Below, piece after piece: positions 17,601-51,395 of a stretch of DNA of 64,000 nucleotides; the stretch's first letter is position 1; every line of letters begins with the position of its first letter. A program made the position numbers and the translations under genes. Origin of the DNA: a virus (lineage: Duplodnaviria; Heunggongvirae; Uroviricota; Caudoviricetes); IMG/VR virus record IMGVR_UViG_3300049617_000342, positions 18,536 through 82,535 of that record. One strand, given 5' to 3'. The notes under the pieces are model-generated. The model was not told the DNA's origin. It did no database searches and worked only from the letters and a program-made list of their open reading frames with translations.

Positions 17601-18530
17601 GTCGTCCCCGTAGTTCTCGCTCCAGTGGTCCCAGGCGTCCTGGGTGGTCATCATGTGGTACGAGTTGTGGAAGTGCCAGCCGTCGGGGTCGCCGTTCTTG
17701 AGCAGCATGTCCTGGACCGGCTTCTCGTCCGGCTTGACGAAGTGGCTGTCGACCGTCAGGATCAGGGGAAGGTTGTTGGCCCGGGCTATCTCGATGTTCT
17801 TGAGGTTGCAGGCCTTCTGGAGGTCGCCGTCTGGGCTGAAGTCGGTGCACTCGTTCGGCGTGAAGACCTTCTCCTTGCGGTCCCAGTCGTGCGTGCAGTT
17901 GTGCGGCATCAGCTCGACGAACAGGCGGCCCGCGTAGGCCGACATGAGCCTCTCGAGGTTCCGCTGGGCGCCGTCGTTCTCGCCGTTCAGGAGCGCCTTG
18001 TTGACGGCCCCGATTAGACAGCCGCTGCCCAGCACTAGCCCCTCGTTGTACTGGACCAGCTCGTCGAAGGTTATGCGGGGCTTCACCTGGCCGAAGCGCT
18101 TGATGACTCGGGCGTACATGCCCTCGACGTTGCGGGTGACCTTGTCCTTGGTTACAGCCTTCTGGGTGTAGATCTCGCTCTTGTCGAAGGACAGGGAGCC
18201 GAGCTTCAGCAGGTTGCGGTAGCCGGCCTCGTTGACCGCCCAGGCGGTGACGTGGTAGTACTCGTAGGCCTTGCCGCTGAACTTGTAGTCCGCGTCCGGC
18301 GCCACGTAGAACTCGACGCCGGGTATGCCCACTATGCCGGCCTCGCCGGCGCTCTTGTACATCTCGAGGGCGCCGATCATCCAGCCGTGGTCGGTGACCG
18401 CCATTCCTGGCGCCCCGTTGTCCTTGCACCACTGGATGTACTCGGAGATGGTCGACGCCCCGTCGAGGACGGAGTAGACGGTGTGGGAGTGAAGCGGACA
18501 TAGCTGCAGCTTCGTCGGTGATTCTGACAT
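14619..18530 (-). CDS. dnaE: DNA polymerase III alpha subunit (DnaE family) with N-terminal PHP domain
   Basis: ~1303 aa. The N-terminus LHSHTVYSVLDGASTI…VTDHG matches PHP-domain motifs, and the length and architecture match DnaE. The start was moved to the internal ATG (MSESPTKL), because the track start would overlap the tRNA. Confidence 0.85.
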   Translation of the reverse strand: MSESPTKLQLCPLHSHTVYSVLDGASTISEYIQWCKDNGAPGMAVTDHGWMIGALEMYKSAGEAGIVGIPGVEFYVAPDADYKFSGKAYEYYHVTAWAVNEAGYRNLLKLGSLSFDKSEIYTQKAVTKDKVTRNVEGMYARVIKRFGQVKPRITFDELVQYNEGLVLGSGCLIGAVNKALLNGENDGAQRNLERLMSAYAGRLFVELMPHNCTHDWDRKEKVFTPNECTDFSPDGDLQKACNLKNIEIARANNLPLILTVDSHFVKPDEKPVQDMLLKNGDPDGWHFHNSYHMMTTQDAWDHWSENYGDDEENRKIFVEAVESNHQIVEMAKALTIKDEYHQPIIEIPQDLRDAAADEREALKGLIMRKIEEHGRMKWDDPDWLERLQMEMEIICDNGVQDFARYFLFMEQWQSWTRAHSILSAPGRGSGAGSLLCYLLKITHLDPFEYKLPFSRFLSPGRIKRRKFPDIDWDMGNRKPLLAKLSETYGENFAQATTHGTMKLKSALKDAFRVLYVNPLENEIDRTPRGPKRDQLVERLEALMPEVEVITKNIPNTPMGTKDREFLEGYTDKDGVEHEGYLYTDEALQAFLVKYHDEDPTKDLRTMFTKMLGIPRSVGRHASAYFISDRPIYESAPLCDVSGHTCTQYTAPPQGFSAAEKAGLIKFDILGVTTLLDISNCIRLVQKSLGYNVWKEKMKIGEKEFDLWLGERSIEEVCMPDGTVHNIYTLPEDEGVFRDLQEGKTESVFQMNSALMTGWTKRIKPTRKEDCSVIVAIIRPGPLLAEIDQDDPDRPIMVAPKVQAVDDEGRPLFHKLTMADAYVKRKNGRVPITYAHPGMEPILKDTYGVAVYQEQLQLMFQHLAGYSEEEADTIREMVGKKKKQDMENLIPELRRRLSERGWTEEQSQVFINLCLASAKYSFNRAHSASYGNIAYACAFLKHHFPKEWWTAVLQNCKEEDIREKGYARTLKDMLVLPHVNGPMDEFEARPDGKVHTPLWMVKGVGAAACKAIQKAIDDRANDIAQGGFSQETSEIMAEAQFSSLQDFFERVDRKACNEGIFEKLILVGAFSLIEPGKSEKDLFREYLYLKKLSGLKLGEGKTGRDLRDAVEAYIVTSGAKPGPKGSKCQNEQIEDELALKFSFDGLELEIKRMSLLSIYRMDVHEMFRPLMESHILYDESGIDTYRDSGGVFVSTRSTKDLALFWDSGMGKKDREVVFSGLLESKEDFEYTDKKTKEKVKALRLSIVNAGDKVEGVIWPSTRDNMRRHGEREPSGNKILICRGRVKPSRTPGLWSLSISRLVEL

Positions 18531-18556
18531 TCGCCTATATCGTACCAAGGTTGGAG

Positions 18557-18632
18557 TGGTAGCCCCACCCCGAGTCGAACGGGGATCATCCATTTAGGAA
18601 ACGGAAGCTCTGTCCACTTAAGCTATGGGGCC
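18557..18632 (-). tRNA. tRNA-Arg (anticodon CCU)
   Basis: Cloverleaf folded by hand on the reverse complement. Acceptor stem GGCCCCA/TGGGGCT (G1·U72), D-stem GCTT/GAGC, anticodon stem TCCGT/ATGGA with loop TTCCTAA, T-arm CCCCG-TTCGACT-CGGGG, and an encoded CCA. Coordinates ±1. Confidence 0.75.
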
Positions 18633-18755
18633 GATCGGATTTTACTGATCTCCCGTTTTGCCTTCTGTCTCGCGGACTTTTTGTCGACTCGGATTTTGTT
18701 GCGGCGGTTGGGGTGGGGCTTGGACAGAGTCTTCCAGCCCTTGGGGTTCTTGTCC

Positions 18756-18950
18756 TTAGCGTAGGGTTTCATCGTCCTTTAGGAGCCTGAACTGTCCGAG
18801 GGCCCTTTCATAGGATCTGGGCCACATCTTTTTGAGGTCAGCCAGTCTAGGCTTGAGTGTCTTGTTATAGTCCTCTTCTGTGAGGTCTCCCGCCGCGAGA
18901 AGTGCCTGCCTGATGAACTGCTTGACTTTCTTGACGTTTCTACTTGCCAT
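18756..18950 (-). CDS. hypothetical protein (64 aa)
   Basis: ORF in the track. Confidence 0.35.
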   Translation of the reverse strand: MASRNVKKVKQFIRQALLAAGDLTEEDYNKTLKPRLADLKKMWPRSYERALGQFRLLKDDETLR

Positions 18951-19401
18951 CTGTCACCTTGGCCGCCTCTGCGGCTTCTTTGGTCTTCTTGTCGTTCTCT
19001 GCCTTGACCTCGGCTGCTATCACCTTGGCGAGGTCGCTGCGGGCCATGGTGCTGATCTTGCGGCTCGGGTTGAAGATGTACTTGACTTCGCCCTTGTCGT
19101 TCCTGAACGGCGTGAAGCCGGGGGAGTTGAACTGGCGCCCGGTTGTGGCCAGCATGGACTGGTACTTCCTGATCTTGCCGTTGCGCATCTGCGTGGCGAT
19201 CTGGCCCTCGGATAGGCCCATGGCGAATGGCGGGTACGCGATGAGGTGCTTCTCGAGTTTCTTCTTGAGGTCGGCGTTGGCCGCTGCCTTGTCCTTGAGT
19301 TTGTCCCCGGTGTCCTTTGACTCCCCGATGACCTCCTCGTTGGTGTAGGCGAAGAACTTTCGTGCCTCGTACTTGCCAGTCGTCTTGTTAAGTGTTGCCA
19401 T
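18940..19401 (-). CDS. hypothetical protein (153 aa, Lys-rich)
   Basis: ORF in the track. Confidence 0.4.
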   Translation of the reverse strand: MATLNKTTGKYEARKFFAYTNEEVIGESKDTGDKLKDKAAANADLKKKLEKHLIAYPPFAMGLSEGQIATQMRNGKIRKYQSMLATTGRQFNSPGFTPFRNDKGEVKYIFNPSRKISTMARSDLAKVIAAEVKAENDKKTKEAAEAAKVTDGK

Positions 19402-19419
19402 TCGTACCTCCGGTTAAGC

Positions 19420-20268
19420 TTATGATACTTCTTCCTCTGGGGCCATCTGGGTGGGCTCGGACTCTTCCTCCCCGGTGCCCTCCTCGTCGCTCATGGTGAG
19501 CAGCTCGACCACGGCCTCCTGCCTCTCTTTTTCCAGCGTCAGGAACATCGCCTTGGCCTTCTCGGGGCCCTCGGTCTCGACGACGCCGACCAGCCAGTCG
19601 AGGTCGGTGCGCGACTGGACGTCCACGGGCTGCGCCGCGGCGACGAACAGGTGGTTCTCGCCCTCGCGGTTGATGCCCTCCAGGATCATGTCGAGGCTGA
19701 CTGTGCAGCTGCTGCCGACCTGCTCCTCCTTCATCTCCACCCTGTCCTTGGGGCAGCGCGGGAGCACGACGCCCAGGCCCGACTTGGGCAGCGTCGACTT
19801 CTTGAACTTGTCGGCCCGGCCGCACACTGGGCACCTGAACGCCTTGACGTCGCGCTGGAGTATCGTGTCCGGGTGGAACTTGTGGCGTGTGCGGCGCAGG
19901 TAGTTCTGCAGGCGGCCGAAGACTATGCTCTTCTCGGCCTGGGCCAGCGCGGCCTCTGGGTTCGCCCTCTTCTTGGCGAGCTGGGCCTTCCGCTTCTCTG
20001 GGTCCTTGATGGTGCTGGTCATGGCCAGCTCGGGGTCGAACTTGTTCTTGAGGGCCATGAAGACTTCCTGGCGGCACTGGTTTATGAGGTCCTCGTAGTC
20101 CATGCTGGCCTCGAACAGGGCGAGCGCGGGCAGGAACTTGCGGACCATGTAGTGGCACATCGGCTCGTACTTCTTGATGCGGGCGTCGTCGATGTCTATG
20201 CCGGCCTTGCACTTGTGGCTCTTCACTGTTTGGCCTCCTTGATGATCTGTCTGAGGGCACCCATCCAT
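19420..20268 (-). CDS. putative sigma-factor-like protein with internal C4 zinc ribbon
   Basis: Segment DYEDLINQCRQEVFMALKNKFDPE resembles sigma-70 region 2.1/2.2. CPVCGR…LPRCP is a zinc ribbon. Acidic C-terminus. Confidence 0.35.
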   Translation of the reverse strand: MDGCPQTDHQGGQTVKSHKCKAGIDIDDARIKKYEPMCHYMVRKFLPALALFEASMDYEDLINQCRQEVFMALKNKFDPELAMTSTIKDPEKRKAQLAKKRANPEAALAQAEKSIVFGRLQNYLRRTRHKFHPDTILQRDVKAFRCPVCGRADKFKKSTLPKSGLGVVLPRCPKDRVEMKEEQVGSSCTVSLDMILEGINREGENHLFVAAAQPVDVQSRTDLDWLVGVVETEGPEKAKAMFLTLEKERQEAVVELLTMSDEEGTGEEESEPTQMAPEEEVS

Positions 20269-20295
20269 GCCGTCCTCAGCTGCTTGACGGTTGGC

Positions 20296-20472
20296 TTAGC
20301 CTCCGTGGCTGTCTTTGGCTGCGATTTGGATGAAGCACTGGTCGCAGATGTCCTTGCCTTCTTGGTATTTGTCGCAGGTCGGGCACTGGCCGTCGAGCGG
20401 TACGAGGATGATTTCGCCGGCATCTTTGACTTGCTCTTGCTCTTCATAAAACAGTTCCTTCATTTTTCCCAT
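20296..20472 (-). CDS. small zinc-ribbon protein (58 aa)
   Basis: MGKMKELFYEEQEQVKDAGEIILVPLDGQCPTCDKYQEGKDICDQCF… with CxxC…CxxC and a GAGGGG RBS. Too short for the ORF track. Preferred over the K/S-rich ORF 20223..20447 in another frame. Confidence 0.35.
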   Translation of the reverse strand: MGKMKELFYEEQEQVKDAGEIILVPLDGQCPTCDKYQEGKDICDQCFIQIAAKDSHGG

Positions 20473-20520
20473 ACGTCACCCCTCAGATTCAATTCTAACT
20501 GGTTTTCCGAGTGTACGCAA

Positions 20521-21486
20521 CTAGTTTTTGTCGGGCTCGAAGTAAATCTCCAACCTGTCGGAAGGAGTGGAGATCTCCTGCGCGTCGCGGGCCGCCTGGC
20601 GGACCTCCTCGGGGGTGCACTCGCCGAAGTCCTTGCGGCCCTCGGGCGGGAAGATCCTGAACACCTTCTTGGAGCTTCCGAGCCTGTTCACCAGGTCGTA
20701 GACCTCGTCGCTCGCGTCGGGGTCTATCCCCACGAAGACCTTGGTGGCCGAAGAGTCGAGTATCAGCTTGACCTGGGCCTTGCTTACCTGCTTCCCGAAC
20801 GAGCACACGCCCCCGAGGCCGCCCATGCACAGCTTGAATGCGTCGAACGGCCCCTCGGCTATGGCTATGGTGTCCACCGCGTAGTCGTAGTTCAGGAGGT
20901 ACTTGGACTTGTTCAGGCCGGTCATGGAGAGCAGCCTCAGCTCGTCGCCCTTGGGGTCCACCTTGCGCGCCTGCCACCCGTAGATCTGGCCGCCGCGCTT
21001 CACGGGAAACACCACCGCGTCCATGGAGCCGCTCCACCTGAGGTCGAACTCGATTATGAGCTGGGGGTCCAGGCAGCCGCGGGACGCCATGTAGTCCATT
21101 CCCCTGCCGCTGGTCTCGAGCGGCGGGAAGCCAACGCCCATCGACACCGGCTTCTCCGGCGCCTCGTCCTCGGCCGCCCACTCCTCGCCGAACTGGACGT
21201 CGCCCTCCCACTCGTCGACCTTGCCCTGGGCGCCGCCGCCGAACAGTACCCCGTGGGCCTCCTCTATCAGGCACCCTTCCAGGTCCGCCACGAGCTGCTT
21301 CCAGCCCCACTTGCTGTTGCACCTGAAGCAGATGGCCGCCCCGGACTTCCTCCGGATATAGAGGTGCTTCTCCTTGCCGCACTCTGGGGCAATGCAGTCG
21401 GTGACCCAGCTCTTTGGGTTGCCGTCGCTAAGCTCTATGCCTTTGTTTTCTAGGAATTCCCTTAGGGCCGTGAACTCTGCTTGCAT
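20521..21486 (-). CDS. DNA primase (DnaG-like: zinc-binding + TOPRIM)
   Basis: CHC2-type zinc finger (CIAPECGKEKH…CFRC). TOPRIM motifs IAIAEGPFDA and VFVGIDPDASDE. Start set at the internal ATG (MQAEFTAL) with GAAGAGGG RBS. Confidence 0.75.
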   Translation of the reverse strand: MQAEFTALREFLENKGIELSDGNPKSWVTDCIAPECGKEKHLYIRRKSGAAICFRCNSKWGWKQLVADLEGCLIEEAHGVLFGGGAQGKVDEWEGDVQFGEEWAAEDEAPEKPVSMGVGFPPLETSGRGMDYMASRGCLDPQLIIEFDLRWSGSMDAVVFPVKRGGQIYGWQARKVDPKGDELRLLSMTGLNKSKYLLNYDYAVDTIAIAEGPFDAFKLCMGGLGGVCSFGKQVSKAQVKLILDSSATKVFVGIDPDASDEVYDLVNRLGSSKKVFRIFPPEGRKDFGECTPEEVRQAARDAQEISTPSDRLEIYFEPDKN

Positions 21487-21692
21487 TCGCGCGCCCTCTT
21501 CACGTCGAAGACGAAGCCGCCCCTGGAGCGGACCTTGGCCTCTGCGTTTCTGACGGCGCCGAGCCACGTGCGGGACCAGGCGACGGGGAACCTCTCTCCC
21601 TTGTGGCGGGTGGAGATCCAGCCTATGGCTGCGAACCTGAAGCTGTCGGAGTTGGTTACGTACTTGGTGCTGAAGAACTTAACGCTCTTCAC
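21462..21692 (-). CDS. hypothetical protein (76 aa)
   Basis: ORF in the track. Confidence 0.3.
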   Translation of the reverse strand: MKSVKFFSTKYVTNSDSFRFAAIGWISTRHKGERFPVAWSRTWLGAVRNAEAKVRSRGGFVFDVKRARECKQSSRP

Positions 21693-21969
21693 TCTTGACC
21701 TCGAGCTGGTACGTCGAGTTGGCGGTCTTGAACTGTAGGAACCTGTTCTTGGAGACGACGCCCTGGTACTTCGCCATGTCCATGATCTCCCTCACGAAGG
21801 TCGTGGTGATGGCGCGGCAGTCTAGACCCGGAGTCAGGGACCTCCCGAAGATCTGGAAGCTCTTGCCCACCTCCGGCAGCTCGTCGAACGAGCCGTCCAT
21901 GTGGTCGGTCCTGATGTTGTTGTGGTTCGACTGTAGCCTGGTGATTCTTCCCGAGTATCTCACGCGCAC
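21679..21969 (-). CDS. hypothetical protein (96 aa)
   Basis: ORF in the track. Confidence 0.4.
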   Translation of the reverse strand: MRVRYSGRITRLQSNHNNIRTDHMDGSFDELPEVGKSFQIFGRSLTPGLDCRAITTTFVREIMDMAKYQGVVSKNRFLQFKTANSTYQLEVKSEER

Positions 21970-21973
21970 TATT

Positions 21974-22429
21974 CTACGCGGCGGCGAAGTACTCGAGCCA
22001 CTGCTCCTCGGTCAGGCGGTGGTCGACGAGCCCGCTGAGGCCCTCGGGGTCCATCTTGGGGAAGTAGGCCTCCATCTGCCTCATGGCCCACTCGTAGGCC
22101 ATCTGGTCCGCCATGGCGTGCTGCTTGACGACCTCGCCCAGAACCTCCTTATCGGTGGCCTCCTTCTCTACCTCGCCCCAGGGAGGGAAGACGGCCCAGA
22201 AGCCGGGGTCGTTCCTGAGCCGCAGCAAGCCGGCGTAGAAGACCACGATGCCGGCCGCCCTGGCAGCGAAGCCCTCAGGGACCTCCACCGTCTTCCTTCT
22301 GAGGTCAAGCACGGATGCGAGCTTGTCAAGGTCACGAGTCGCCAGGGCGCGGAAGTCTGGCGCGACAAACTTGAGGATCCTTCTGGCGGTGTTGAATGTG
22401 AGGGTGTGCTCGATGGAGTGGTCCGACAT
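21974..22429 (-). CDS. hypothetical protein (151 aa)
   Basis: ORF in the track. Confidence 0.45.
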   Translation of the reverse strand: MSDHSIEHTLTFNTARRILKFVAPDFRALATRDLDKLASVLDLRRKTVEVPEGFAARAAGIVVFYAGLLRLRNDPGFWAVFPPWGEVEKEATDKEVLGEVVKQHAMADQMAYEWAMRQMEAYFPKMDPEGLSGLVDHRLTEEQWLEYFAAA

Positions 22430-22430
22430 C

Positions 22431-22655
22431 TCAACCCAGCTGCTCCCGAGCCACGATGAGTCCGCGCTCTGGGTCGTAGGGGGAGAAGCCGACGGTCACC
22501 TTGTCGCCAGTGATGACCCTGATCTTGAACTTCCTGAGGCGGCCGGCGAGCTGCGCCTTCACGGTGACGCCGTTGTCCAGCAGGACGGTGAACTGCCCGT
22601 TGCCCTTGCTCTCCACGACGGTGCCGTCCATCTTCAGTAGGTCATCTTTTGCCAT
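22431..22655 (-). CDS. infA: translation initiation factor IF-1
   Basis: 74 aa, colinear with bacterial IF-1 along its whole length. Compare MAKDDLLKMDGTVVESKGNGQFTVLLDNGVTVKAQLAGRLRKFKIRVITGDKVTVGFSPYD with E. coli [61 protein letters not shown]. Confidence 0.85.
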   Translation of the reverse strand: MAKDDLLKMDGTVVESKGNGQFTVLLDNGVTVKAQLAGRLRKFKIRVITGDKVTVGFSPYDPERGLIVAREQLG

Positions 22656-23316
22656 CGGCCCTCTCCATTATCAGTTGTGCCCTGGTCCTGTACTCGGTGT
22701 CGGGGCCGTGCTCCGCGAAGTCTCGGACGTAGCTGATCAGTTCCTTCACTATGGACACCTGCTTCTCGTAGACGCCCGCGGTCACGAGCGCGTCGCCCCG
22801 GGCGGTGTGCAGGTCCTTCTCGTCGAACTCTATCTTGTGATACTGGGCGTAGTGTATCAGCTTGCCCAGCCTGCCGGGGTACATGCCGGCATCTAGTAGG
22901 AGGTTGCCACCGATGCCGCTATCCCTTATCTGGTAGCTGAAGAACTTCTCCCAATGTCTCCTCTTGAGGAGCTGCTCCCATATCTTGTCGAGGTCGCCCT
23001 GGACGCCGTGCCCGAGGACGTAGATCTTGTCCTCGCCGTCCTTGGTGTGCTGCCGTGCCCACTGGACGAGTGCCTGTGCCCCCTCGGAGTAGGTCACCGC
23101 GACCTTGTCGTGCTCCACCAGGTCTATATGGTTGACAGTGAGGCTCTCGGGCGTTATCAGGTACTTGCCGTCGTTGGGTTTGAGCTTGAGGTCGAGCTCG
23201 TCTATTAGCTCCCACTTTCCGCTCTCGTGTATGAGGAACAGCCCGAAGTAGGCGGTCAGTATCGACTCGTCCCAGAACCCGCCGGACTCCAGGTCGATCG
23301 ATATGGCCCTCATCAC
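22642..23316 (-). CDS. DnaQ-like 3'-5' exonuclease (DEDDh)
   Basis: Exo I AISIDLESGG, Exo II LGHGVQGDLDKIW, Exo III HTARGDALVTAGVY. A candidate proofreading partner for the DnaE polymerase. Confidence 0.65.
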   Translation of the reverse strand: MMRAISIDLESGGFWDESILTAYFGLFLIHESGKWELIDELDLKLKPNDGKYLITPESLTVNHIDLVEHDKVAVTYSEGAQALVQWARQHTKDGEDKIYVLGHGVQGDLDKIWEQLLKRRHWEKFFSYQIRDSGIGGNLLLDAGMYPGRLGKLIHYAQYHKIEFDEKDLHTARGDALVTAGVYEKQVSIVKELISYVRDFAEHGPDTEYRTRAQLIMERADGKR

Positions 23317-23690
23317 GCGTTGGCTTTGATTATCGCGGTCCCTTGCTTCTCGAGCTGCTCGGATGTGGGGCCGTTTATGTTCTCGTTGGGGTCCTGGACC
23401 GCGCCGGTGCGCTTAAGCTCCTCGATAACGAACTTGATCCTGTTCTGCATGTGCTTTATGGTGGTGGTCGAGGAGGAGGTGAGGTTCTTGAGGGCGGCTC
23501 GCGCCTCCACGATCTCCTTCTTGGTCTGAAGGTAGATCTGGGTGTCGTGGATGCCCTTCTCCATGTCGAAGATCAGCTTCTTGCGCTCCTCGTCCGTCTG
23601 GAGGTCCCTGACTGTGTCGACGAACGTCTGGCTCACTCCGGGTGGGTAGACGGGTCCGGTCGACTTCCTGCTGCGGAACTTCTTCGCCAT
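23313..23690 (-). CDS. hypothetical protein (125 aa)
   Basis: ORF in the track. Confidence 0.4.
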   Translation of the reverse strand: MAKKFRSRKSTGPVYPPGVSQTFVDTVRDLQTDEERKKLIFDMEKGIHDTQIYLQTKKEIVEARAALKNLTSSSTTTIKHMQNRIKFVIEELKRTGAVQDPNENINGPTSEQLEKQGTAIIKANA

Positions 23691-23730
23691 GTGTGTCTCC
23701 TGTCAAAATGTGTGGGTCTGCATTAGATTT

Positions 23731-24240
23731 CTACCAGTGGTAGCTGAGGCCGGTGCCGAACGTGGGGCCGTTCTGGGAGTCGACCCTGTAGCTGAAGTAG
23801 TGCTGGACCCCGAAGAAGATGGGGCTCCTTATCTCGGACACCTGGAGCGAGTTCGCGGTGACGCCCAGCTTGGTGTGGCCCACGATCGGGGCGTCGAAGG
23901 AGGCCTGGAGTTGCTGGTTCTTGACGACCGTGCCGGCGTAGATGACCGCGGCCATCCACGTTATGCCCATGGCCTCGGCCTTCCTGACGGCCTGGTCTCC
24001 GATCTGCCTCTCGTACTGCTCTAGCTTGTCCGTGACCCCGGTCTGCTTGCCGGCGGCCTCCAGGGCCTTGCCGAAGGCATCCTTCTCGTTGGGGGTGTAG
24101 TCCGACGGTATCTCGGAGGAGGCGAAGTTTCGAAGCTGGTCGAAGGTCTGGGAGGCGTGCAGGGGCAGCGACGCCGCTAGGACTGCGGCGACAAGATAAG
24201 CTTTGAGATCTCGTCTACGTGGACCGGCTTGTAGTCCCAT
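23731..24240 (-). CDS. secreted beta-barrel (OMP-like) protein
   Basis: N-terminal signal peptide (RRR…AYLVAAVLAASLPLHA). Alternating amphipathic beta pattern. C-terminus GLSYHW ends in an aromatic residue, as in OM beta-barrels. The start overlaps the upstream gene by 64 nt. Confidence 0.4.
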   Translation of the reverse strand: MGLQAGPRRRDLKAYLVAAVLAASLPLHASQTFDQLRNFASSEIPSDYTPNEKDAFGKALEAAGKQTGVTDKLEQYERQIGDQAVRKAEAMGITWMAAVIYAGTVVKNQQLQASFDAPIVGHTKLGVTANSLQVSEIRSPIFFGVQHYFSYRVDSQNGPTFGTGLSYHW

Positions 24241-24767
24241 ACATCCACCCCCACGTTAATCATCTTACCCCTTTGCTTCCACTTTTCGTGGACATGGCCG
24301 CACAGCAGCCAGCGGCCATCGTCCTTCAGGCGCCACTTCAGATACCTTTGATCTTGGGAGGGGTCCGGGTCAGCGTACGGCATGTGGCTCAGGTTCACCA
24401 CGGCAACTCCCGGGATGTCCAGCGTCATGTGTTCGTGGACCTCGTCCCACCCATTCTCCAGGTACTTCTGAATCCACTTGGCTCGGTTTTCTGGATGCCT
24501 GGACTTGCGGTTCACGGGATGGCAGAAGTCGTGGTTGCCGCATATCAAGATCTTCTTGCCCATCAAGCGTTTGGTGTATAGCTCGACGCTCCTGAAGGCC
24601 ATCGAGAAGTCTCCAAGGTGGTACACGGTGTCGTCCGGCCCCACGACGTCGTTCCAGTTCTTGACCAGCATCTCGTTCATCTCTTCGACAGACGCGTATG
24701 GGCGACTGCAATACCGGATGACATTGGCGTGCCAAAAGTGATGGTCAGAAGTCAGATAGATCGCCAT
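24177..24767 (-). CDS. calcineurin-like metallophosphoesterase
   Basis: Motifs LTSDHHF, HLGDF, GNHD and CGHVHE. Confidence 0.6.
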   Translation of the reverse strand: MAIYLTSDHHFWHANVIRYCSRPYASVEEMNEMLVKNWNDVVGPDDTVYHLGDFSMAFRSVELYTKRLMGKKILICGNHDFCHPVNRKSRHPENRAKWIQKYLENGWDEVHEHMTLDIPGVAVVNLSHMPYADPDPSQDQRYLKWRLKDDGRWLLCGHVHEKWKQRGKMINVGVDVWDYKPVHVDEISKLILSPQS

Positions 24768-24778
24768 GGTCCGAAGTG

Positions 24779-25069
24779 TTAGCCACCGATCAGGGTGTTG
24801 GGTTTGGGAGCCAACGATGGTGCGTTGGCTATCCTCTTCAGCCCCTTCGCGAGCAGCTGCTCGTCCGATAGGGACTCGATGTCGATGTCGTTTCCGAAAA
24901 CCACGATGCCTATGAGGCCGTGGGGCTTGAGCTGCTCCAGGTACGTCTTGAGGACCACGTTCTTCAGCTCGCCCTTGCGGTCCTTGATGAACAGGACGCG
25001 GTCCTTGACCTCGAGGGTCTTCAGGCTGATGTTCGCGTAGTCGATCTGCTCTACCTTCTCGTCAAGCAT
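24779..25069 (-). CDS. hypothetical protein (96 aa)
   Basis: The internal ATG (MLDEKVEQ) is preferred; the N-terminal part of the track ORF is Arg-rich shadow. Confidence 0.4.
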   Translation of the reverse strand: MLDEKVEQIDYANISLKTLEVKDRVLFIKDRKGELKNVVLKTYLEQLKPHGLIGIVVFGNDIDIESLSDEQLLAKGLKRIANAPSLAPKPNTLIGG

Positions 25070-25320
25070 GCTTGACCTCCTGTTTGGGCGGTGGTGTTCG
25101 TGGCCTCGTTGAACTTCTTCCACGCGTCGTAGACCGCGACCGGCATGAAGTGCTTCGTATCGAAGGTGCTCCACTCGCCGGAGTCGTCGTAGACCAGAAA
25201 ACATGGGTAGCCGCCGGAGCCTTCCCCCAGGACTTCGGCCTCGTAGACCTTGCCCTCTGTCAGGCGCCTGGTCTTTTTGAAGATGCCGCTCTCGTACCCG
25301 TCACTGCAAACCAATGTCAT
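25051..25320 (-). CDS. hypothetical protein (89 aa)
   Basis: ORF in the track. Confidence 0.35.
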   Translation of the reverse strand: MTLVCSDGYESGIFKKTRRLTEGKVYEAEVLGEGSGGYPCFLVYDDSGEWSTFDTKHFMPVAVYDAWKKFNEATNTTAQTGGQACLTRR

Positions 25321-25667
25321 ACCTTAGGTTTACCGTCCACGTCGATCCAGCCTTCCTTCACCGCGTGCTCCTTGCCGTGCTCCTGGATGAGCCGGGGAAG
25401 CTCGTGCTTCCGCCAGTGCTCGCTCGCCCTGTCCCCGACCATCTTCTTGATGCCCTGCACGTTCTTCATGCCGTGGTACTCGTCGCTGGTCTCGACGGCC
25501 CTGGCCTGGGGGGTCGCTGGCTGTCTGGTGGATGGCAGGTTGCATGCGGAGGGAGGGCTCTTGTTCCAGTCGGGCGCTTCGCAGAGGACCTCGTCGTCCG
25601 CGTTCGTGACCGGCCGGAGCTTCTTGTTGTAGTGTCCCGCCGGGCAGACGTACGTGTAGATGGGCAT
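25317..25667 (-). CDS. hypothetical protein with N-terminal CxxxH…C zinc-ribbon-like motif
   Basis: 116 aa ORF beginning YTYVCPAGH…. Confidence 0.4.
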   Translation of the reverse strand: MPIYTYVCPAGHYNKKLRPVTNADDEVLCEAPDWNKSPPSACNLPSTRQPATPQARAVETSDEYHGMKNVQGIKKMVGDRASEHWRKHELPRLIQEHGKEHAVKEGWIDVDGKPKV

Positions 25668-26080
25668 CAGTGTCCCGAGCCGGCCCTCACCGCCTCGGCG
25701 CCGATGTACGCCGCGAGGAGGCCTATGCCTATTCCGATCCAGAGGTCGAACTTGGACTTCTGCTTCTCCTGAGCAAGCTGGCTCTGGTACAGGCTCGAGT
25801 CCGCTATGGCGTTGTCTCCGCGCTTCTGCTGGTACTGGATGTCGAGGTCCTTGAGCGTGAGCTGCTTCCCCTGCTCGTCCACTATCTGGGCGTTGTAGTC
25901 CCCGTCCACGAGCTGCTTCTGGACCGTCTTGTTGTAGTCGAGGCTGAGCCCGACGCGGTCGCAGTCCTTCACGGTGTCGCCGACCTTGAGGTCGACGGCG
26001 TTGGGGCAGTCCGCTGCGGCGCTACTTGCGATTGTTGTAGAAATCAGCAGGGTCGCCAGTACCGACTTTGCTCTCCGCAT
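25667..26080 (-). CDS. secreted/membrane-anchored protein (137 aa)
   Basis: Signal peptide MRRAKSVLATLLISTTIASSAAADC and a C-terminal hydrophobic segment (LWIGIGIGLLAAYIGA). Confidence 0.45.
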   Translation of the reverse strand: MRRAKSVLATLLISTTIASSAAADCPNAVDLKVGDTVKDCDRVGLSLDYNKTVQKQLVDGDYNAQIVDEQGKQLTLKDLDIQYQQKRGDNAIADSSLYQSQLAQEKQKSKFDLWIGIGIGLLAAYIGAEAVRAGSGH

Positions 26081-26300
26081 CCTGCTTCTCCTTCTGGAGC
26101 TGGTCTATCTTGGCCTGCTCCTGCTGTGTCTGCTGCTGGTTCTGGGAGATCTGCCCAGCAAGGGCGTCCTCCTTCTTCTTGTTCCTGTTGAGGAGCCACT
26201 GGTCCACGGCCTGTACGGCCCCGTCCTTGCCAAGCACCAGGAGCCCGACTATGATCAGCGGTATCAGTACCAGTAGGACCAGCTTCTCCAGCAACGTCAT
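26022..26300 (-). CDS. small membrane protein with Q-rich coiled coil (92 aa)
   Basis: MTLLEKLVLLVLIPLIIVGLLVLG… followed by QNQQQTQQEQAKIDQLQKEKQ. It is the C-terminal part of track ORF 26022..26765; the remainder is GC shadow. Confidence 0.35.
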   Translation of the reverse strand: MTLLEKLVLLVLIPLIIVGLLVLGKDGAVQAVDQWLLNRNKKKEDALAGQISQNQQQTQQEQAKIDQLQKEKQDAESKVGTGDPADFYNNRK

Positions 26301-26329
26301 GGTGGAGAAGAGGGCCTTGCCTGCCTCTA

Positions 26330-27319
26330 CTAGTCCTCGTCCCGTGCCTGCTGGCAGAACTCCACCACCGCCTTGCGGGCTGCTGGCGGGATTTTGTTGG
26401 ACATTACTCCCAGGAGGCTGCACGCCTCCTTGGCCTTCTTGAACAGATCCGCCTGCTTGTCCGGTTCCTGTGGGTTGGTCCATGGCCTGCTTTTCCCCTC
26501 CGCTATCTTGCGGGGCAATTCCTTCTGTATGAAGTTCCTGACTGCCTCGTACGTCACTATGAACGCGTAGCTGAGTTCCCTGCTGTCCGACGCGAAGGCC
26601 ACGCCAGCTATGTCCCCCTTGTCGTCCAGGACGGCGCTGCCGCTGGAGCCCGGGAGTATGGTCGCAGAGACAACCTGTGACTCGTAGTCCTTGAATATGG
26701 GTATACCGCCCAGGAACGCGCACAGGAAGGCCTTGTTCTCGTCGGCTAGGTCGGCCTCGGTGCACTCCTTGATTCCCGTCATGATCTGGATGATCTTCTT
26801 GCCCGAGAAGTGCCCCCTCGTTATGATTGTGGGGAACAGCGCGGGGTGCCCGACTATGGTCACCGGCTCGAACTCCCTTGGCCTGTGTGACGCGAGCCTG
26901 GCCTTGTCGCCGTACTCGTAGGCCACCGTGAGGGCGCAGAGGTCGTGCTCGTCAGAGAGGTAGTAGCCCGTCACGTTGTGCTCGGAGCCGTCGGGCCCGC
27001 TCACCTTGCCGCCCTTCTTTAGGACGTGCTCGCAGACGTGGCTGTTGGTCAGGATGAGGCTCTCGGACTCGTCGGTCTGTATGACGCTGCCGCTGCCGCC
27101 GGAGTTGCCCTCCTGGTTGGTGATCATCACCGCGAAGCTCTGGGGCGCCGGCCTCTTGTTCAGCTCGTCTATCAGGTGTAGGGCGTCCATGTGCTTCTTC
27201 CCTGCGATCCCACCGAAGGCCAGACTGGCGATCAGGAGAATGGCGGGGGCCTTGTCCACCGCGGCGTCCTTGGCCGCTGCGGCCCTGAACAGAATCTTGG
27301 CTATCAACGAAGCGATCAC
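26330..27319 (-). CDS. trypsin-like serine protease with N-terminal membrane anchor
   Basis: N-terminal hydrophobic segment. His motif LTNSHV, Asp region, Ser motif PGSSGSAV (GDSGG-like). Confidence 0.6.
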   Translation of the reverse strand: MIASLIAKILFRAAAAKDAAVDKAPAILLIASLAFGGIAGKKHMDALHLIDELNKRPAPQSFAVMITNQEGNSGGSGSVIQTDESESLILTNSHVCEHVLKKGGKVSGPDGSEHNVTGYYLSDEHDLCALTVAYEYGDKARLASHRPREFEPVTIVGHPALFPTIITRGHFSGKKIIQIMTGIKECTEADLADENKAFLCAFLGGIPIFKDYESQVVSATILPGSSGSAVLDDKGDIAGVAFASDSRELSYAFIVTYEAVRNFIQKELPRKIAEGKSRPWTNPQEPDKQADLFKKAKEACSLLGVMSNKIPPAARKAVVEFCQQARDED

Positions 27320-27332
27320 AAATTCTCCTTTG

Positions 27333-29048
27333 TCATTGCTGGCTTATCTCCTGAGAAGCCTTGATTATGCCCTCTTGCATTGCGCGGATCTTCTCCGCCT
27401 CCTCGGTGTTCGAGACGGCGATAACCCCACCGAGTGTCATAAGCATCTGCGCGACGGACAGCGAGTTGTCCAGCGCGGTCATGGTCACCTTGGCGGGGTC
27501 CATGATGCCCGCCTCCCACCAGTCCACGTACTTCATCCCCAGAGCGTCGAACACCAGGAACTTGCCGTCCTTGGGGCCGACCAGGTCGGCCGTGTTCTGG
27601 AGGTCCTTCTCGTCTATGAGGCCGGCGTTCTTTAGTATCTGGATGAACGGCATCGCCATGGCCTTCCTGAGGATGCCCTCGGCGCCCTCGGGCGACATCC
27701 CCTTCGCTATCTGGAGCAGCGTGGTTCCTCCACCCGGGACGACGCCCTTCTCGACCGCGCTGCGGACCGAGCTGACCGCGTCGACCACCCGAGCGTGGCG
27801 CTCCTTGGCCTCGAAGCTGGACACGCCGCCGGCATAGACGACCGCGACGCCGCCCGTTAGGCAGCTGATGCGGTACCGTATGCGGTCCTGGTCGAAGTCG
27901 TTGGCGCCCTGCATCTTCTCCTTGAGGTCTGCTATCCTCTTCTCGATCAGCTCGATCTTGGCGTCCGCCTCGACGACGGTGTCGCTCGGGGTGACCTTGA
28001 TCGACCGGGCGAAGCCCATGTTGAGGATGGTGGCCTCCTTGAGCCCGTGGGCCACGGGGTCGAACACCTGCCCGTCGACGTAGGCCGCGAGGTCGTGCAG
28101 GAAGCCCTGCTTGCCGTGCGCCTGGCCGTTCCTGGGGGTGATCAGCGGCATGCACGTGAACCGGCCGAGCCTGAAGTTCTGCGCGAGCAGCTTCAGCACC
28201 GCGTCGGAGTACCTGTGGGCGAAGATGATAAGGGGCGTCATCAGGGCCCGGCCGTTCTCGCCGATCTCCTTGCTGACGTCCGTCATGACTGGGATTATGT
28301 CCTCGGCCACGTTGATCTCGCCGTCGTAGAGCAGCACGTATGCGCCGCCCTCGATCTTCGTGTCGCCGTAGGCGTTGTTGTTGACGAACAGGGTGCTGGC
28401 GGAGCCGCCCAGGTCGCGGAGCCCCGTGGTTATAGGGAAGCCAGGCTTGATCTCGACGCTGGTGTCCGCCCCGGCGCCCTCCTCGGCTATGATCATCCCG
28501 TCCTCGCCTACCTTGTCGGCGGCCTCGGCCACCTTCTCGGCTATCTCGAGGTCGTGGTTGGCGCTGACCTTGGCTACGTGCTTGAGGGCGGCGCGGCTGT
28601 CCTCGACGGACATGCCCTTGATCTGCTTGGCCATGGCCTCGACCGCCGGCTTGACCTTGTCGTTCAGTATGGTCTTGAGCCTGCGGCTGAGCTCCTGGGG
28701 GCTGATGTGCGGGTTCTTCTGGAGGAACTCCTGGCCCTCGCGGACCATGGCGGCAGCCAGCACTATGGCCGTCGTGGTGCCGTCTCCGGCGACCCTAGCG
28801 GTGCGCTCGCAGACCTCCTTGGAGGCGTCCACGACCACCCGCTCGACGGCGCCCTGCTCCGCGTAGTACCTGGATACGGTGACGCCGTCCTTGGTGGACA
28901 GCGGCGCCTTGCCAAGCTCCTGCTCGAGGAGCATGGTGCGCCCGCCGGGGCCGAGGGTCATGCCCACGGCCTTCGACAGGTTGTCTATCGCGGTGAAAAC
29001 CTTGAGCCTGAACTCTGCGCTGTCAAGAAACGTTATCGGTGCCGGCAT
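27333..29048 (-). CDS. groL: chaperonin GroEL (Cpn60)
   Basis: 571 aa, colinear with GroEL. Matches include AGDGTTTA, the equatorial ATP-binding regions, and GGVAVVYAGGVSSFEAKERHARVVDAVSSVRSAVEKGVVPGGG. Confidence 0.9.
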   Translation of the reverse strand: MPAPITFLDSAEFRLKVFTAIDNLSKAVGMTLGPGGRTMLLEQELGKAPLSTKDGVTVSRYYAEQGAVERVVVDASKEVCERTARVAGDGTTTAIVLAAAMVREGQEFLQKNPHISPQELSRRLKTILNDKVKPAVEAMAKQIKGMSVEDSRAALKHVAKVSANHDLEIAEKVAEAADKVGEDGMIIAEEGAGADTSVEIKPGFPITTGLRDLGGSASTLFVNNNAYGDTKIEGGAYVLLYDGEINVAEDIIPVMTDVSKEIGENGRALMTPLIIFAHRYSDAVLKLLAQNFRLGRFTCMPLITPRNGQAHGKQGFLHDLAAYVDGQVFDPVAHGLKEATILNMGFARSIKVTPSDTVVEADAKIELIEKRIADLKEKMQGANDFDQDRIRYRISCLTGGVAVVYAGGVSSFEAKERHARVVDAVSSVRSAVEKGVVPGGGTTLLQIAKGMSPEGAEGILRKAMAMPFIQILKNAGLIDEKDLQNTADLVGPKDGKFLVFDALGMKYVDWWEAGIMDPAKVTMTALDNSLSVAQMLMTLGGVIAVSNTEEAEKIRAMQEGIIKASQEISQQ

Positions 29049-30726: not shown

Positions 30727-30736
30727 TGTCTCTCCG

Positions 30737-50782: not shown

Positions 50783-50973
50783 AATACAACGTCAAGATCA
50801 GGGTGACCATGAGCGGGGCCGAGACGGAGCAGTTCGAGGCAGCAGACGCCTCGCTGGCAAGGGCGGCCGCCGAGGAGTACGCCTCCAAGCAGCTGGTGGA
50901 CATGGCAAAGGAGACGAGCCCCGAGGACGAGTTCAAGTCGAGCTTCGTCATCGAGGAAGTGAAGGAAGCTTGA
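50779..50973 (+). CDS. hypothetical acidic protein (64 aa)
   Basis: GTGA overlap. Confidence 0.3.
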   Translation: MKYNVKIRVTMSGAETEQFEAADASLARAAAEEYASKQLVDMAKETSPEDEFKSSFVIEEVKEA

Positions 50974-51395
50974 ACGGCCTTCCCAAGCAGGTCATCGTCA
51001 TCAGGCGGGACCTCGGCATGAAGAAGGGCAAGATGGTCGCCCAGGGCGCCCACGCGAGCCTGGCCGTCTTCCTGAGCAAGGAGAACTTCTGGGCAGTGGA
51101 CGGGGAGCTCGGCGGCTTCGACTACTACTTCCACAACGGCGACGCCGAGGGCAAGATGCACGAGGCCATCGGAGAGTGGTTCAGCGGCAAGTTCACCAAG
51201 ATAGTCGTGGGAGTGGAGGGCGAGGCCGAGCTCAGGGCCGTATACGAGAAGGCGAGGGAGCTGCACCTGCCCTGCTCGCTGATACAGGACGCGGGCGAGA
51301 CCCAGGTGGCGCCCGGGAGCTTCACGGCGGCGGCCATCGGCCCCGGACCGGCGGAGATGATAGACGGCATAACAGGAGGCCTGAGGTTGCTATGA
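50970..51395 (+). CDS. peptidyl-tRNA hydrolase, PTH2 family
   Basis: KQVIVIRRDLGMKKGKMVAQGAHAS matches the PTH2 N-terminal signature (vRtDLkMgkGKiaAQcsHA). TTG start assumed; the start is uncertain. Confidence 0.6.
   Translation: MNGLPKQVIVIRRDLGMKKGKMVAQGAHASLAVFLSKENFWAVDGELGGFDYYFHNGDAEGKMHEAIGEWFSGKFTKIVVGVEGEAELRAVYEKARELHLPCSLIQDAGETQVAPGSFTAAAIGPGPAEMIDGITGGLRLL

What the first reader, a model, noticed from the sequence alone, without database searches (positions are those of the whole stretch)
22431..22655. Phage-encoded translation initiation factor IF-1
The 74-aa product is colinear with bacterial IF-1 along its whole length. Together with PTH2 (50970..51395) and tRNA-Arg(CCU) (18557..18632), the phage carries its own translation components.
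Basis: partly seen in the sequence, partly recalled or inferred. Interest (0 to 1): 0.55.

Follow-up and report, generated by a model that had tools for sequence, protein, structure and literature searches.

The report
Phage-encoded translation initiation factor IF-1
A large high-GC bacteriophage carries its own well-conserved copy of the small bacterial protein IF-1 that helps ribosomes start protein synthesis; the call is correct, but phages with this gene have been reported before, so it is a new example and not a new kind of thing.

Summary
Confirmed. Window 22431..22655, on the minus strand, encodes a 74-aa protein that is a full-length IF-1. It scores 82.5 bits on TIGR00008 (cutoff 61.15) and 68.5 bits on PF01176. 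It aligns end to end with solved IF-1 structures, and its AF2 model has TM 0.90 to ribosome-bound E. coli IF1.

The window is a phage (portal, large terminase, DnaE-type polymerase, UvsX, GroEL, RNR). PTH2 and tRNA-Arg(CCU) are also confirmed.

New points:
- The gene is under much stronger purifying selection than its neighbours: dN/dS 0.04 against about 0.24, measured against an 82%-identical relative.
- It lies in a two-gene block with a DnaQ-like exonuclease. Two syntenic relatives lack the block, so it is a lineage-specific accessory gene.
- No sampled cellular IF-1 exceeds 61% identity. Five shared derived residues tie it to the Bdellovibrionota / 'Deltaproteobacteria' / Myxococcota type of IF-1. 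This is not a recent capture.
- rRNA-contact residues (R39, R41, R46, R64, R70) are kept. Part of the S12-facing surface and the C-terminus differ (L66, A69, E71, Q72).

Most likely it binds the host 30S A site as a working IF-1. Phage IF-1 is already documented in huge phages, Lak and Jug phages, so this is a new member of a known kind, of modest interest.

The parts
22431..22655 (-). IF-1 (infA homolog) coding sequence, 74 aa, ATG start, TGA stop
   Evidence: ORF listing. PF01176 68.5 bits. TIGR00008 82.5 bits, above the 61.15 cutoff. Full-length match to solved IF-1s. AF2 model pLDDT 78 with the IF-1 topology. Foldseek TM 0.90 and rmsd 1.2 A to 9fco_I. dN/dS 0.041.
22659..22666 (-). Shine-Dalgarno-like GGAGAGGG, 3 nt upstream of the IF-1 ATG; it lies inside the 3' end of the upstream exonuclease gene
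   Evidence: Read directly from the sequence...CTGATAATGGAGAGGGCCG ATG. The upstream ORF ends at 22642 and overlaps the IF-1 start by 14 nt, which is compatible with translational coupling (inference).
22642..23316 (-). DnaQ-like 3'-5' exonuclease (224 aa), present or absent together with IF-1
   Evidence: phrog_192 'DNA polymerase exonuclease subunit', E 1.1e-9. A homolog is named 'DNA polymerase III epsilon subunit-like' and another carries PF00929. Absent together with IF-1 from L006 and L007. Present with IF-1 in L005, L096 and L097.
23313..23690 (-). Conserved 125-aa gene marking the upstream boundary of the exonuclease + IF-1 block
   Evidence: Its homologs in L006 (6978-7259) and L007 (3891-4220) directly abut or overlap the homolog of the 151-aa gene.
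21974..22429 (-). Conserved 151-aa gene marking the downstream boundary; it starts 1 nt after the IF-1 stop codon
   Evidence: Homologs at L006 7256-7699 (48% identity) and L007 4217-4663 (30%). Spacing read from the sequence.
18557..18632 (-). tRNA-Arg, anticodon CCU (decodes AGG)
   Evidence: ARAGORN. Rfam RF00005, 52.9 bits. AGG makes up 40% of Arg codons in 43 window genes.
50970..51395 (+). Peptidyl-tRNA hydrolase, PTH2 type (141 aa)
   Evidence: PF01981, E 2e-35, 121.9 bits, profile positions 2-115 of 115.

Best explanation
The ORF encodes a functional phage IF-1. It is made from a tightly packed, same-strand array of replication-module genes, and probably translated in coupling with the upstream exonuclease gene. 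It folds into the five-strand OB barrel with the short helix between strands 3 and 4. It binds the A site of the host 30S subunit through the conserved basic residues R39 (K39 in cellular IF-1), R41, R46, R64 and R70, which contact the 530 loop, helix 44 and the flipped-out A1492/A1493. Raising or maintaining the IF-1:ribosome ratio during infection would sustain initiation-complex formation, and possibly bias it, in favour of phage mRNAs. This would work alongside a phage tRNA-Arg(CCU) that matches the phage's AGG-rich codon usage, and a PTH2 that recycles stalled peptidyl-tRNA. Shown here: identity, fold, residue conservation, purifying selection, phage context, and lineage-specific presence. 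Inferred: 30S binding, timing of expression, and the benefit to the phage.
For: Family membership above curated cutoffs. Gap-free alignment to solved IF-1s. The AF2 model (pLDDT 78) has elements E7-17, E21-26, E31-36, H38-42, E52-58 and E61-70. These closely match the C. difficile IF1 NMR elements listed in PMC10913371. The top 12 Foldseek PDB hits are all bacterial IF-1, including ribosome-bound E. coli IF1 at TM 0.90 and rmsd 1.2 A. Within the 72-residue IF-1 core, every column that is at least 90% conserved among 130 homologs is retained, except K39R (conservative) and K72Q. The residues reported to contact G530 and A1492/A1493 and to be essential for 30S binding are present: K39, R41, R46, R64 (PMC10913371) and Arg69 in mature numbering, which is R70 here (PMC4611024). 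dN/dS is 0.041 at dS 0.59 against the 82%-identical relative L005, versus 0.23-0.25 for both flanking genes. The four amino-acid differences are T23S, D27E, V30I and P62S. The gene has a good SD sequence and operon-like packing. The arrangement is identical in three independent assemblies, so it is not a chimera. Changing IF1/IF3 stoichiometry is a known lever on mRNA selection in cold shock (PMC9947658 and PMC6511841). Huge-phage studies interpret phage IF1 as redirecting host translation (PMC7162821).
Against: No experiment exists for any part of the mechanism. Several positions that are perturbed by 30S binding or face S12 in C. difficile IF1 differ: H30V, H35Q, R66L, W69A. V30 and L66 also occur in bona fide cellular IF-1s of the Bdellovibrionota type. 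A69 (aromatic in 128 of 130 homologs) and the acidic/neutral tail E71-Q72 (K72 in 96%) are unique to this phage lineage. They sit next to the essential R70 and could alter binding or release. The host is unknown, so compatibility with its ribosome cannot be assessed. Syntenic relatives L006 and L007 do without the gene, so it is dispensable for this type of phage.
Confidence: 0.65

Rival explanations
1. Modified IF-1 acting as a ribosome hijacker or inhibitor. It occupies the 30S A site like IF-1, but its altered S12-facing surface and C-terminal tail change release kinetics or IF2/IF3 cooperation. The outcome would be suppression of host initiation or a changed start-site/mRNA preference, instead of simple supplementation of the host factor.
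For: The lineage-unique substitutions A69, E71 and Q72 lie beside the essential R70, and L66 and Q35 lie on the S12-facing side. These changes are themselves conserved between the window and L005 across dS 0.59. The protein is about equally distant from all cellular IF-1s, 50-61%, which is consistent with functional divergence after capture. PMC10913371 notes that IF1 at high concentration may inhibit protein synthesis.
Against: The rRNA-contact core is intact, and L66 and V30 are normal in an entire cellular IF-1 subclade, so most 'odd' residues are inherited and not new. Other phage IF-1s do not share A69, E71 or Q72, so there is no general phage signature. No direct evidence supports inhibition.
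Confidence: 0.17
2. An OB-fold RNA-binding protein used off the ribosome, for example as an RNA chaperone or melting factor for phage transcripts, exploiting the structural similarity of IF1 to CspA.
For: [quoted passage not shown] The gene sits among replication and nucleic-acid genes (primase, exonuclease, polymerase).
Against: Conservation is specifically of the IF-1 ribosome-contact residues, and the protein passes the infA equivalog model, not a Csp or S1 model. IF1 overexpression does not suppress the csp quadruple-deletion defects (PMC9947658). All best fold matches are IF-1, eIF1A or aIF1A.
Confidence: 0.1
3. A neutral passenger: a recently captured host infA fragment, or a decaying gene with no role in the phage.
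For: The gene is absent from syntenic relatives L006 and L007, so it is not core. It lies in a variable region where several other small ORFs are also lineage-specific.
Against: dN/dS is 0.041, about six-fold lower than both neighbours, over dS 0.59. The ORF is intact and full length, with an SD sequence. No cellular IF-1 above 61% identity exists among 5.8 billion proteins or 185,579 GTDB species genomes. GC3 is 0.87, the same as the phage's, and 2 of its 5 Arg codons are the phage-preferred AGG.
Confidence: 0.04
4. An assembly artefact or host contamination: the IF-1 gene belongs to a bacterial contig mis-joined to phage DNA.
For: IF-1 is normally a cellular gene, and some 'phage' database records with canonical IF-1 look like host contamination (e.g. 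the bacterial context gadX-infA).
Against: The same junctions (125-aa gene, exonuclease, IF-1, 151-aa gene, primase) are found at 99.97-100% identity in three independent assemblies, and at 82% identity in a fourth. Gene overlaps of 14 nt and 4 nt and a 1-nt spacer tie it into the phage operon.
Confidence: 0.01

Closest known systems
Bacterial translation initiation factor IF-1 (infA; TIGR00008 / PF01176), e.g. E. coli IF1 (PDB 1AH9, 9FCO chain I) and T. thermophilus IF1 on the 30S subunit (1HR0)
   Same: Same length class (72-74 aa), same N-terminus (MAKDD), the same five-strand OB barrel plus short helix, and the same basic rRNA-contact residues (K/R39, R41, R46, R64, R70). About 50% identity to E. 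coli IF1 without gaps.
   Different: Encoded by a phage inside a replication-gene array, not in a cellular locus. H30V, H35Q, R66L, aromatic69A, and the tail REQLG in place of RSK/RSR. At most 61% identical to any cellular IF-1.
Bdellovibrionota / 'Deltaproteobacteria' / Myxococcota-type cellular IF-1 (e.g. MCB0350734.1, OFZ17747.1; GTDB loci L008-L087)
   Same: Shares the derived states V30, F43, G56, P62 and L66, and a Gly-rich strand 1-2 loop. These are the best-scoring cellular relatives, at 50-61%. NJ bootstrap for phage + this subclade is 77%.
   Different: The phage protein keeps canonical F22 and R64 (the subclade has Y22 and H64). It has A37 where the subclade has C and canonical IF-1 has S, and it shares T49 with E. 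coli where the subclade has V. It has unique A69, E71 and Q72. It sits on a long branch at the base of the subclade and is nested within it in only 27% of bootstraps.
IF-1 genes of huge phages and megaphages (Al-Shayeb et al. 2020, PMC7162821; Lak phages MK2500xx; Jug phages, PMC12880540; Sinorhizobium phage Phosso; Bacteroides phages DAC/SJC); PHROG phrog_30201
   Same: A phage-borne full-length IF-1 accompanied by other translation genes. It hits phrog_30201 at E 5e-21. There are 35 phage records with tblastn matches. The published interpretation is redirection of host translation.
   Different: Only 39-53% identical to any of them and closer to a cellular subclade, so this is an independent acquisition. 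The replicon is a 62.7% GC phage whose known contigs and relatives are 93-157 kb, so it is not shown to be a phage of 200 kb or more. The other phage IF-1s keep R66, an aromatic or basic residue at 69, and K72.
eIF1A / aIF1A (archaeal and eukaryotic orthologs) and the RsgA N-terminal OB domain
   Same: Same OB fold, and the same A-site-binding family in the case of eIF1A/aIF1A. Foldseek TM about 0.8. Weak HMM hits: RsgA_N 21.6 bits, aIF-1A 19.3 bits.
   Different: Scores are far below those families' cutoffs. The protein has none of the N- or C-terminal extensions of eIF1A and no GTPase domain.

Membership tests
Bacterial IF-1 (infA; TIGR00008 equivalog / Pfam PF01176) | Scores above the curated family cutoffs over the full length of the model | tested here: met
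   TIGR00008: 82.5 bits against a 61.15 cutoff, model positions 1-68 of 69. PF01176: 68.5 bits against 30.2, positions 2-64 of 64.
Bacterial IF-1 (infA; TIGR00008 equivalog / Pfam PF01176) | A single-domain protein of about 70-75 aa with a five-stranded OB beta-barrel and a short helix in the strand 3-4 loop | tested here: met
   The AF2 model (113-sequence alignment, pLDDT 78.2) has elements E7-17, E21-26, E31-36, H38-42, E52-58 and E61-70. The top 12 Foldseek PDB hits are bacterial IF-1, with TM up to 0.90. A shallow 13-sequence alignment gave only pLDDT 56.6.
Bacterial IF-1 (infA; TIGR00008 equivalog / Pfam PF01176) | Conserved basic residues that contact the 530 loop, h44 and A1492/A1493, plus the essential C-terminal Arg (K39, R41, R46, R64, R70; PMC10913371, PMC4611024) | tested here: met
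   R39 (conservative replacement of K39), R41, R46, R64 and R70 are all present. N19, Y60, G38 and G50-D51 are also kept.
Bacterial IF-1 (infA; TIGR00008 equivalog / Pfam PF01176) | Canonical S12-facing or 30S-perturbed residues (H30, H35, R66, aromatic 69) | tested here: inconclusive
   The phage has V30, Q35, L66 and A69. V30 and L66 also occur in cellular IF-1s of Bdellovibrionota-type genomes, so they are compatible with function. A69 is unique to this lineage and its effect is unknown.
Bacterial IF-1 (infA; TIGR00008 equivalog / Pfam PF01176) | Binds the 30S A site and stimulates or proofreads 30S initiation-complex formation; complements infA loss | not testable with these tools
   Needs biochemistry or genetics. 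Only indirect support is available here: purifying selection at dN/dS 0.041.
Phage-encoded translation factors (auxiliary translation genes as described for huge phages, PMC7162821) | The gene lies in a bona fide phage genome, not in host DNA or a chimeric contig | tested here: met
   Portal, large terminase, UvsX, DnaE-type polymerase, primase, GroEL, RNR and helicase are present. There is synteny with IMG/VR contigs L006 and L007. Junctions are identical in independent assemblies.
Phage-encoded translation factors (auxiliary translation genes as described for huge phages, PMC7162821) | Accompanied by other translation-related genes | tested here: met
   tRNA-Arg(CCU) and PTH2. No other translation genes were found among about 40 further ORFs scanned.
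Phage-encoded translation factors (auxiliary translation genes as described for huge phages, PMC7162821) | Genome of at least 200 kb (the 'huge/jumbo' definition) | not testable with these tools
   The window is 64 kb. The longest contig carrying the identical exonuclease is 93,434 bp, and the relatives' contigs are 124,585 and 157,131 bp. Completeness is unknown.
Phage-encoded translation factors (auxiliary translation genes as described for huge phages, PMC7162821) | Shares descent with other phage IF-1 genes (one viral IF-1 lineage) | tested here: not met
   The best phage match is 53%, lower than the best cellular match at 61%. Key-residue patterns differ among phage IF-1s. Independent capture is more likely.

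The most novel reading that the evidence does not exclude
The phage IF-1 is a specialised derivative and not a plain spare copy. Its lineage-unique changes beside the essential R70 (A69, E71, Q72), together with the non-canonical S12-facing surface, would alter its residence time on the 30S subunit or its interplay with IF2/IF3. Under this reading it re-programmes start-site or mRNA selection toward the AGG-rich phage transcripts, or replaces a host IF-1 that is inactivated during infection. This would occur in a phage that may be well below the 200-kb 'huge phage' class in which such genes have been discussed.
Probability: 0.12. Interest if true: 0.6.

Novelty: new member of a known kind. Interest (0 to 1): 0.3.

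Why it matters
Phage-borne translation factors are one strand of evidence that large phages actively re-tool the host ribosome instead of only borrowing it. Almost none of these genes has been tested. This example is a clean candidate for such a test for several reasons. It is tiny (74 aa) and under very strong purifying selection. It is present or absent between otherwise syntenic relatives, which gives a natural knockout comparison. It also carries a small, well-defined set of substitutions next to a residue known to be essential for 30S binding. In addition it gives a host-lineage clue for an uncultured high-GC phage clade, pointing to Bdellovibrionota or Myxococcota-type bacteria. It does not change the current picture of the field.

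Tried and rejected
- Megablast of window 15000-35000 against 50,697 phage records found no match. The closest cultured phage by portal protein is only Myxococcus phage Mx1, at 29%.
- Single-protein scans of IMG/VR with IF-1, the exonuclease and the primase found no relatives. Only the polymerase and a three-sequence primase profile recovered the two contigs L006/L007.
The distribution of IF-1 across the clade therefore rests on few genomes.
- The first AF2 run on a 13-sequence alignment was too uncertain (pLDDT 56.6) and was not used for fold search. It was replaced by a 113-sequence alignment.
- The sigma-70 promoter and intrinsic-terminator scan of 18000-30500 found no more sites than shuffled sequence, so it says nothing about the transcription unit.
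- I considered that the exonuclease + IF-1 pair is a conserved functional module. I rejected this because exonuclease homologs in other phage contigs (L099, L100) have no IF-1 next to them, and one sits next to a DNA_pol_A fragment.
- I considered that phage IF-1s share a convergent 'phage signature' at positions 66, 69 and 72. I rejected this because the other phage IF-1s keep R66, an aromatic or basic residue at 69, and K72.
- The preprint PMC13345285 was searched for residue-level IF1-IF2 contacts and yielded none usable.
- My recollection that IF1 can substitute for cold-shock proteins was contradicted by PMC9947658, and I lowered that rival accordingly.
- Extraction of the LR756508 IF-1 homolog failed in my script, so it is not used.

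Full report
**Observation**

The coordinates 22431..22655 delimit an ATG-to-TGA ORF of 74 codons on the minus strand. The plus-strand reading has an in-frame stop.

The product is MAKDDLLKMDGTVVESKGNGQFTVLLDNGVTVKAQLAGRLRKFKIRVITGDKVTVGFSPYDPERGLIVAREQLG.

- It matches Pfam PF01176 (eIF-1a/IF-1) across the whole model: 68.5 bits against a cutoff of 30.2.
- It matches the NCBIfam infA equivalog TIGR00008 over model positions 1-68 of 69: 82.5 bits against a cutoff of 61.15.
- It aligns without a gap over residues 1-71 to E. coli IF1, and similarly to the IF-1s of eight or more other bacteria with solved structures, at E 2e-17 to 2e-12.
- It also hits a PHROG family, phrog_30201, that is labelled 'unknown function' (E 5e-21).

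**Fold**

A first AlphaFold2 run on a shallow 13-sequence alignment was unreliable (pLDDT 56.6). With a 113-sequence alignment the model reached pLDDT 78.2. It shows strands 7-17, 21-26, 31-36, 52-58 and 61-70, and a helix at 38-42. This closely matches the element list published for C. difficile IF1 (PMC10913371).

Foldseek against the PDB returned bacterial IF-1 structures as the top 12 hits. Ribosome-bound E. coli IF1 (9fco_I) scored TM 0.90 at rmsd 1.2 A. eIF1A/aIF1A and the RsgA OB domain followed.

**The replicon is a phage**

The 62.7% GC window is densely coding with high-GC3 ORFs. It encodes:

| Gene | Coordinates |
|---|---|
| Portal | 1372-3534 |
| Large terminase | 5005-6906 |
| UvsX-like recombinase | 9345-10568 |
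| DnaE-type polymerase | 14619-18593 |
| Primase | 20521-21567 |
| GroEL-like chaperonin | 27333-29048 |
| Ribonucleotide reductase | 37936-39582 |
| Helicase | 40135-41673 |

No close relative exists among 50,697 phage records. The best portal match is Myxococcus phage Mx1 at 29%.

PTH2 (50970-51395, PF01981, E 2e-35) and tRNA-Arg(CCU) (18557-18632, minus strand) are confirmed. Pfam scans of about 40 further ORFs found no additional translation genes. The three translation elements are dispersed and do not form a module.

**Local anatomy**

IF-1 lies in a long array of minus-strand genes.

- The upstream gene (22642-23316, 224 aa) overlaps the IF-1 start by 14 nt and contains the GGAGAGGG Shine-Dalgarno sequence 3 nt before the ATG.
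- The downstream 151-aa gene starts 1 nt after the IF-1 stop codon.
- The upstream gene is a DnaQ-like 3'-5' exonuclease (phrog_192, E 1e-9; homologs are named 'DNA polymerase III epsilon subunit-like' or carry PF00929).
- A consensus promoter and terminator scan was uninformative.

**Is the gene maintained?**

A metagenome contig, L005, is 82% identical in DNA over 1.3 kb and has the same gene order. Between the two IF-1 genes there are 20 synonymous and 4 nonsynonymous codon differences (T23S, D27E, V30I, P62S).

| Gene | dN/dS (Nei-Gojobori) | dS |
|---|---|---|
| IF-1 | 0.041 | 0.59 |
| Exonuclease (upstream) | 0.25 | 0.56 |
| 151-aa gene (downstream) | 0.23 | 0.77 |

IF-1 is therefore the most constrained gene of the three. 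Contigs from three other assemblies are 99.97-100% identical to the window across the same junctions, which excludes a chimeric assembly.

**Is it core to the phage clade?**

No. Two IMG/VR contigs, L006 (polymerase 58% identical, 124.6 kb) and L007 (51%, 157.1 kb), are syntenic with the window from GroEL through the primase and polymerase to UvsX.

In both contigs the homologs of the 125-aa gene (23313-23690) and the 151-aa gene (21974-22429) abut directly, with a 4-nt overlap in each. There is no exonuclease and no IF-1. The most parsimonious reading is that the exonuclease + IF-1 block was gained in the window/L005 lineage. This is an inference from few genomes.

More distant exonuclease homologs in other phage contigs are not next to IF-1, so the pair is not a conserved module. 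Further scans found no additional close relatives.

**Origin**

Among 5.8 billion proteins, the only hit above 61% is the L005 homolog at 95%. The next hits, at 54-61%, lie in ordinary bacterial chromosomal contexts. Where named, they belong to Bdellovibrionales or Pseudobdellovibrionaceae MAGs.

The phage protein shares five derived states with this minority type of IF-1: V30, F43, G56, P62 and L66. The two motifs that define the type occur in 302 of the GTDB species genomes. These are overwhelmingly Bdellovibrionota, plus 'Deltaproteobacteria', Myxococcota and Deferrimicrobiaceae MAGs. Several have 64-69% GC, and none exceeds 61% identity to the phage protein.

In a bootstrapped NJ tree the phage pair groups with this subclade against canonical IF-1s in 77% of replicates. 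It sits on a long branch at the base of the subclade and is nested inside it in only 27%. Mean identity is 55% to the subclade and 52% to canonical IF-1s.

GC3 is 0.87, like the phage. Two of the gene's five Arg codons are AGG, the phage's preferred Arg codon, though that sample is too small to carry weight.

Together with the weak Mx1 link, its affinities tentatively suggest a high-GC host of the former Deltaproteobacteria. That host assignment is an inference.

Matches to other phage IF-1s are weaker, at 39-53%, and their residue patterns differ. This argues for an independent acquisition.

**Functional residues**

C. difficile IF1 numbering coincides with the phage numbering.

- PMC10913371 assigns K39 and M42 to the G530 backbone, R41 and R46 to the flipped-out A1492 and A1493, the strand 1-2 loop to the h44 minor groove, and H35, Y60, R64 and R66 to the S12 side.
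- PMC4611024 reports Arg69 (mature numbering, R70 here) as essential for 30S binding.
- The phage protein has R39, R41, K42 (as in E. coli), R46, Y60, R64 and R70.
- Within the 72-residue IF-1 core it keeps every column that is at least 90% conserved, except K39R and K72Q.
- It differs at H30V, H35Q and R66L. V30 and L66 are shared with the cellular Bdellovibrionota-type IF-1s, which have K at position 35.
- It differs uniquely at position 69, where it has Ala and 128 of 130 homologs have W, Y, F or H.
- Its tail is also unique: E71-Q72-L-G in place of S/H-K.

**Mechanism**

The best-supported reading (about 0.65) is a working IF-1. It binds the host 30S A site and keeps or shifts the IF-1:ribosome ratio during infection.

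This fits the known role of IF1/IF3 stoichiometry in mRNA selection (PMC9947658 and PMC6511841). It also fits the interpretation given for huge-phage IF1 (PMC7162821).

Rivals:

| Rival | Confidence | Main reason |
|---|---|---|
| Modified IF-1 acting as hijacker or inhibitor | ~0.17 | Unique substitutions beside R70 |
| Off-ribosome RNA chaperone | ~0.10 | Weakened because IF1 does not rescue csp deletions |
| Neutral passenger | ~0.04 | Contradicted by dN/dS |
| Assembly artefact | ~0.01 | Contradicted by independent assemblies |

**Comparison with what is known, and novelty**

Phage-encoded IF-1 is documented in several places. Al-Shayeb et al. 2020 list IF1 and IF3 among huge-phage genes. 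Jug phages carry 'translation initiation factor 1A' as a core gene. In the phage database, 35 records give tblastn matches, including Lak megaphages, Bacteroides DAC/SJC phages and Sinorhizobium phage Phosso.

This is therefore a new member of a known kind. Its particular points are:

- an independent acquisition from a Bdellovibrionota/Myxococcota-type IF-1;
- strong constraint;
- presence/absence polymorphism within a syntenic clade;
- a small set of unusual substitutions next to R70;
- a replicon not shown to be of 'huge' size.

Interest is modest (0.3).

Noticed in passing
window, 43 called genes; tRNA at 18557-18632 (-): AGG is the most used arginine codon in the phage genes: 291 of 733 Arg codons, or 40%. 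Crude ORF sets from high-GC cellular loci (L009-L041) give 4-12%. The phage's only tRNA is tRNA-Arg(CCU), which decodes exactly that codon. This looks like a matched codon-usage/tRNA pair.
   Followed up: partly
L006 and L007 (IMG/VR contigs) versus the window: Relatives that are syntenic over more than 15 kb, with polymerase 51-58% and GroEL 52-60% identical, have only 43-44% GC against 62.7% in the window. That is a very large compositional shift within one phage clade and implies very different hosts.
   Followed up: no
window 27333-29048 (-): A phage-encoded GroEL-like chaperonin (phrog_5725, E 2e-95), conserved in both relatives L006 and L007. Unlike IF-1, it appears to be a core gene of this clade.
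   Followed up: partly
window 31295-32704 (-): A 469-aa protein with SPFH/Band 7 and flotillin domains (PF01145 E 3e-25; PF15975 E 6e-7). This is an unusual membrane-microdomain protein for a phage.
   Followed up: no
window 53400-57533 (-): A 1377-aa protein with C1q domain matches near its C-terminus (PF00386, E 8e-21, two stretches). It is followed by three large ORFs without any family hit (57540-63939). Probably tail-fibre or receptor-binding proteins.
   Followed up: no
window 18530-18632 (-): The mechanically listed start of the DnaE-type polymerase ORF (18593) overlaps the tRNA-Arg gene by 37 nt. Homology starts at residue 20, and an in-frame ATG at about 18530 lies just downstream of the tRNA. 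The true start is probably there.
   Followed up: partly
L102 (Bacteroides phage SJC03, MT074146.1 629-934) versus window 22431-22655: The IF-1 homolog of the Bacteroides DAC/SJC phages is annotated only as 'hypothetical protein'. It shares with the window protein an unusual first half, VVES-x-GNG-x-F-x-VLLDN...LAG, including the Gly-Asn-Gly strand 1-2 loop that inserts into h44. The second halves are only about 39% identical by my own count on the alignment. Whether this is convergence or phage-to-phage exchange is unresolved.
   Followed up: no
PHROGs phrog_30201: This PHROG family, labelled 'unknown function', matches the IF-1 over positions 1-72 at E 5e-21. It is evidently a family of phage IF-1 homologs that lacks an annotation.
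   Followed up: no
L105 (CAKLQH020000005.1, 'Acinetobacter phage MD-2021a'): The infA in this 'phage' record sits next to gadX and a conserved bacterial protein, and has a canonical gamma-proteobacterial sequence. The short 'Listeria phage' records and the Staphylococcus and Enterococcus 'phage' records with IF-1 hits may also be host DNA; I did not check their context. Counts of phage-borne IF-1 taken from that database are therefore inflated.
   Followed up: partly
window 3535-4020 (-), 36138-37412 (+), 24177-24767 (-): Other accessory genes: a weak HNH endonuclease hit between the portal and terminase region, a class I/II aminotransferase (PF00155, E 5e-26), and a calcineurin-like phosphoesterase that is absent from L006 and L007.
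   Followed up: no
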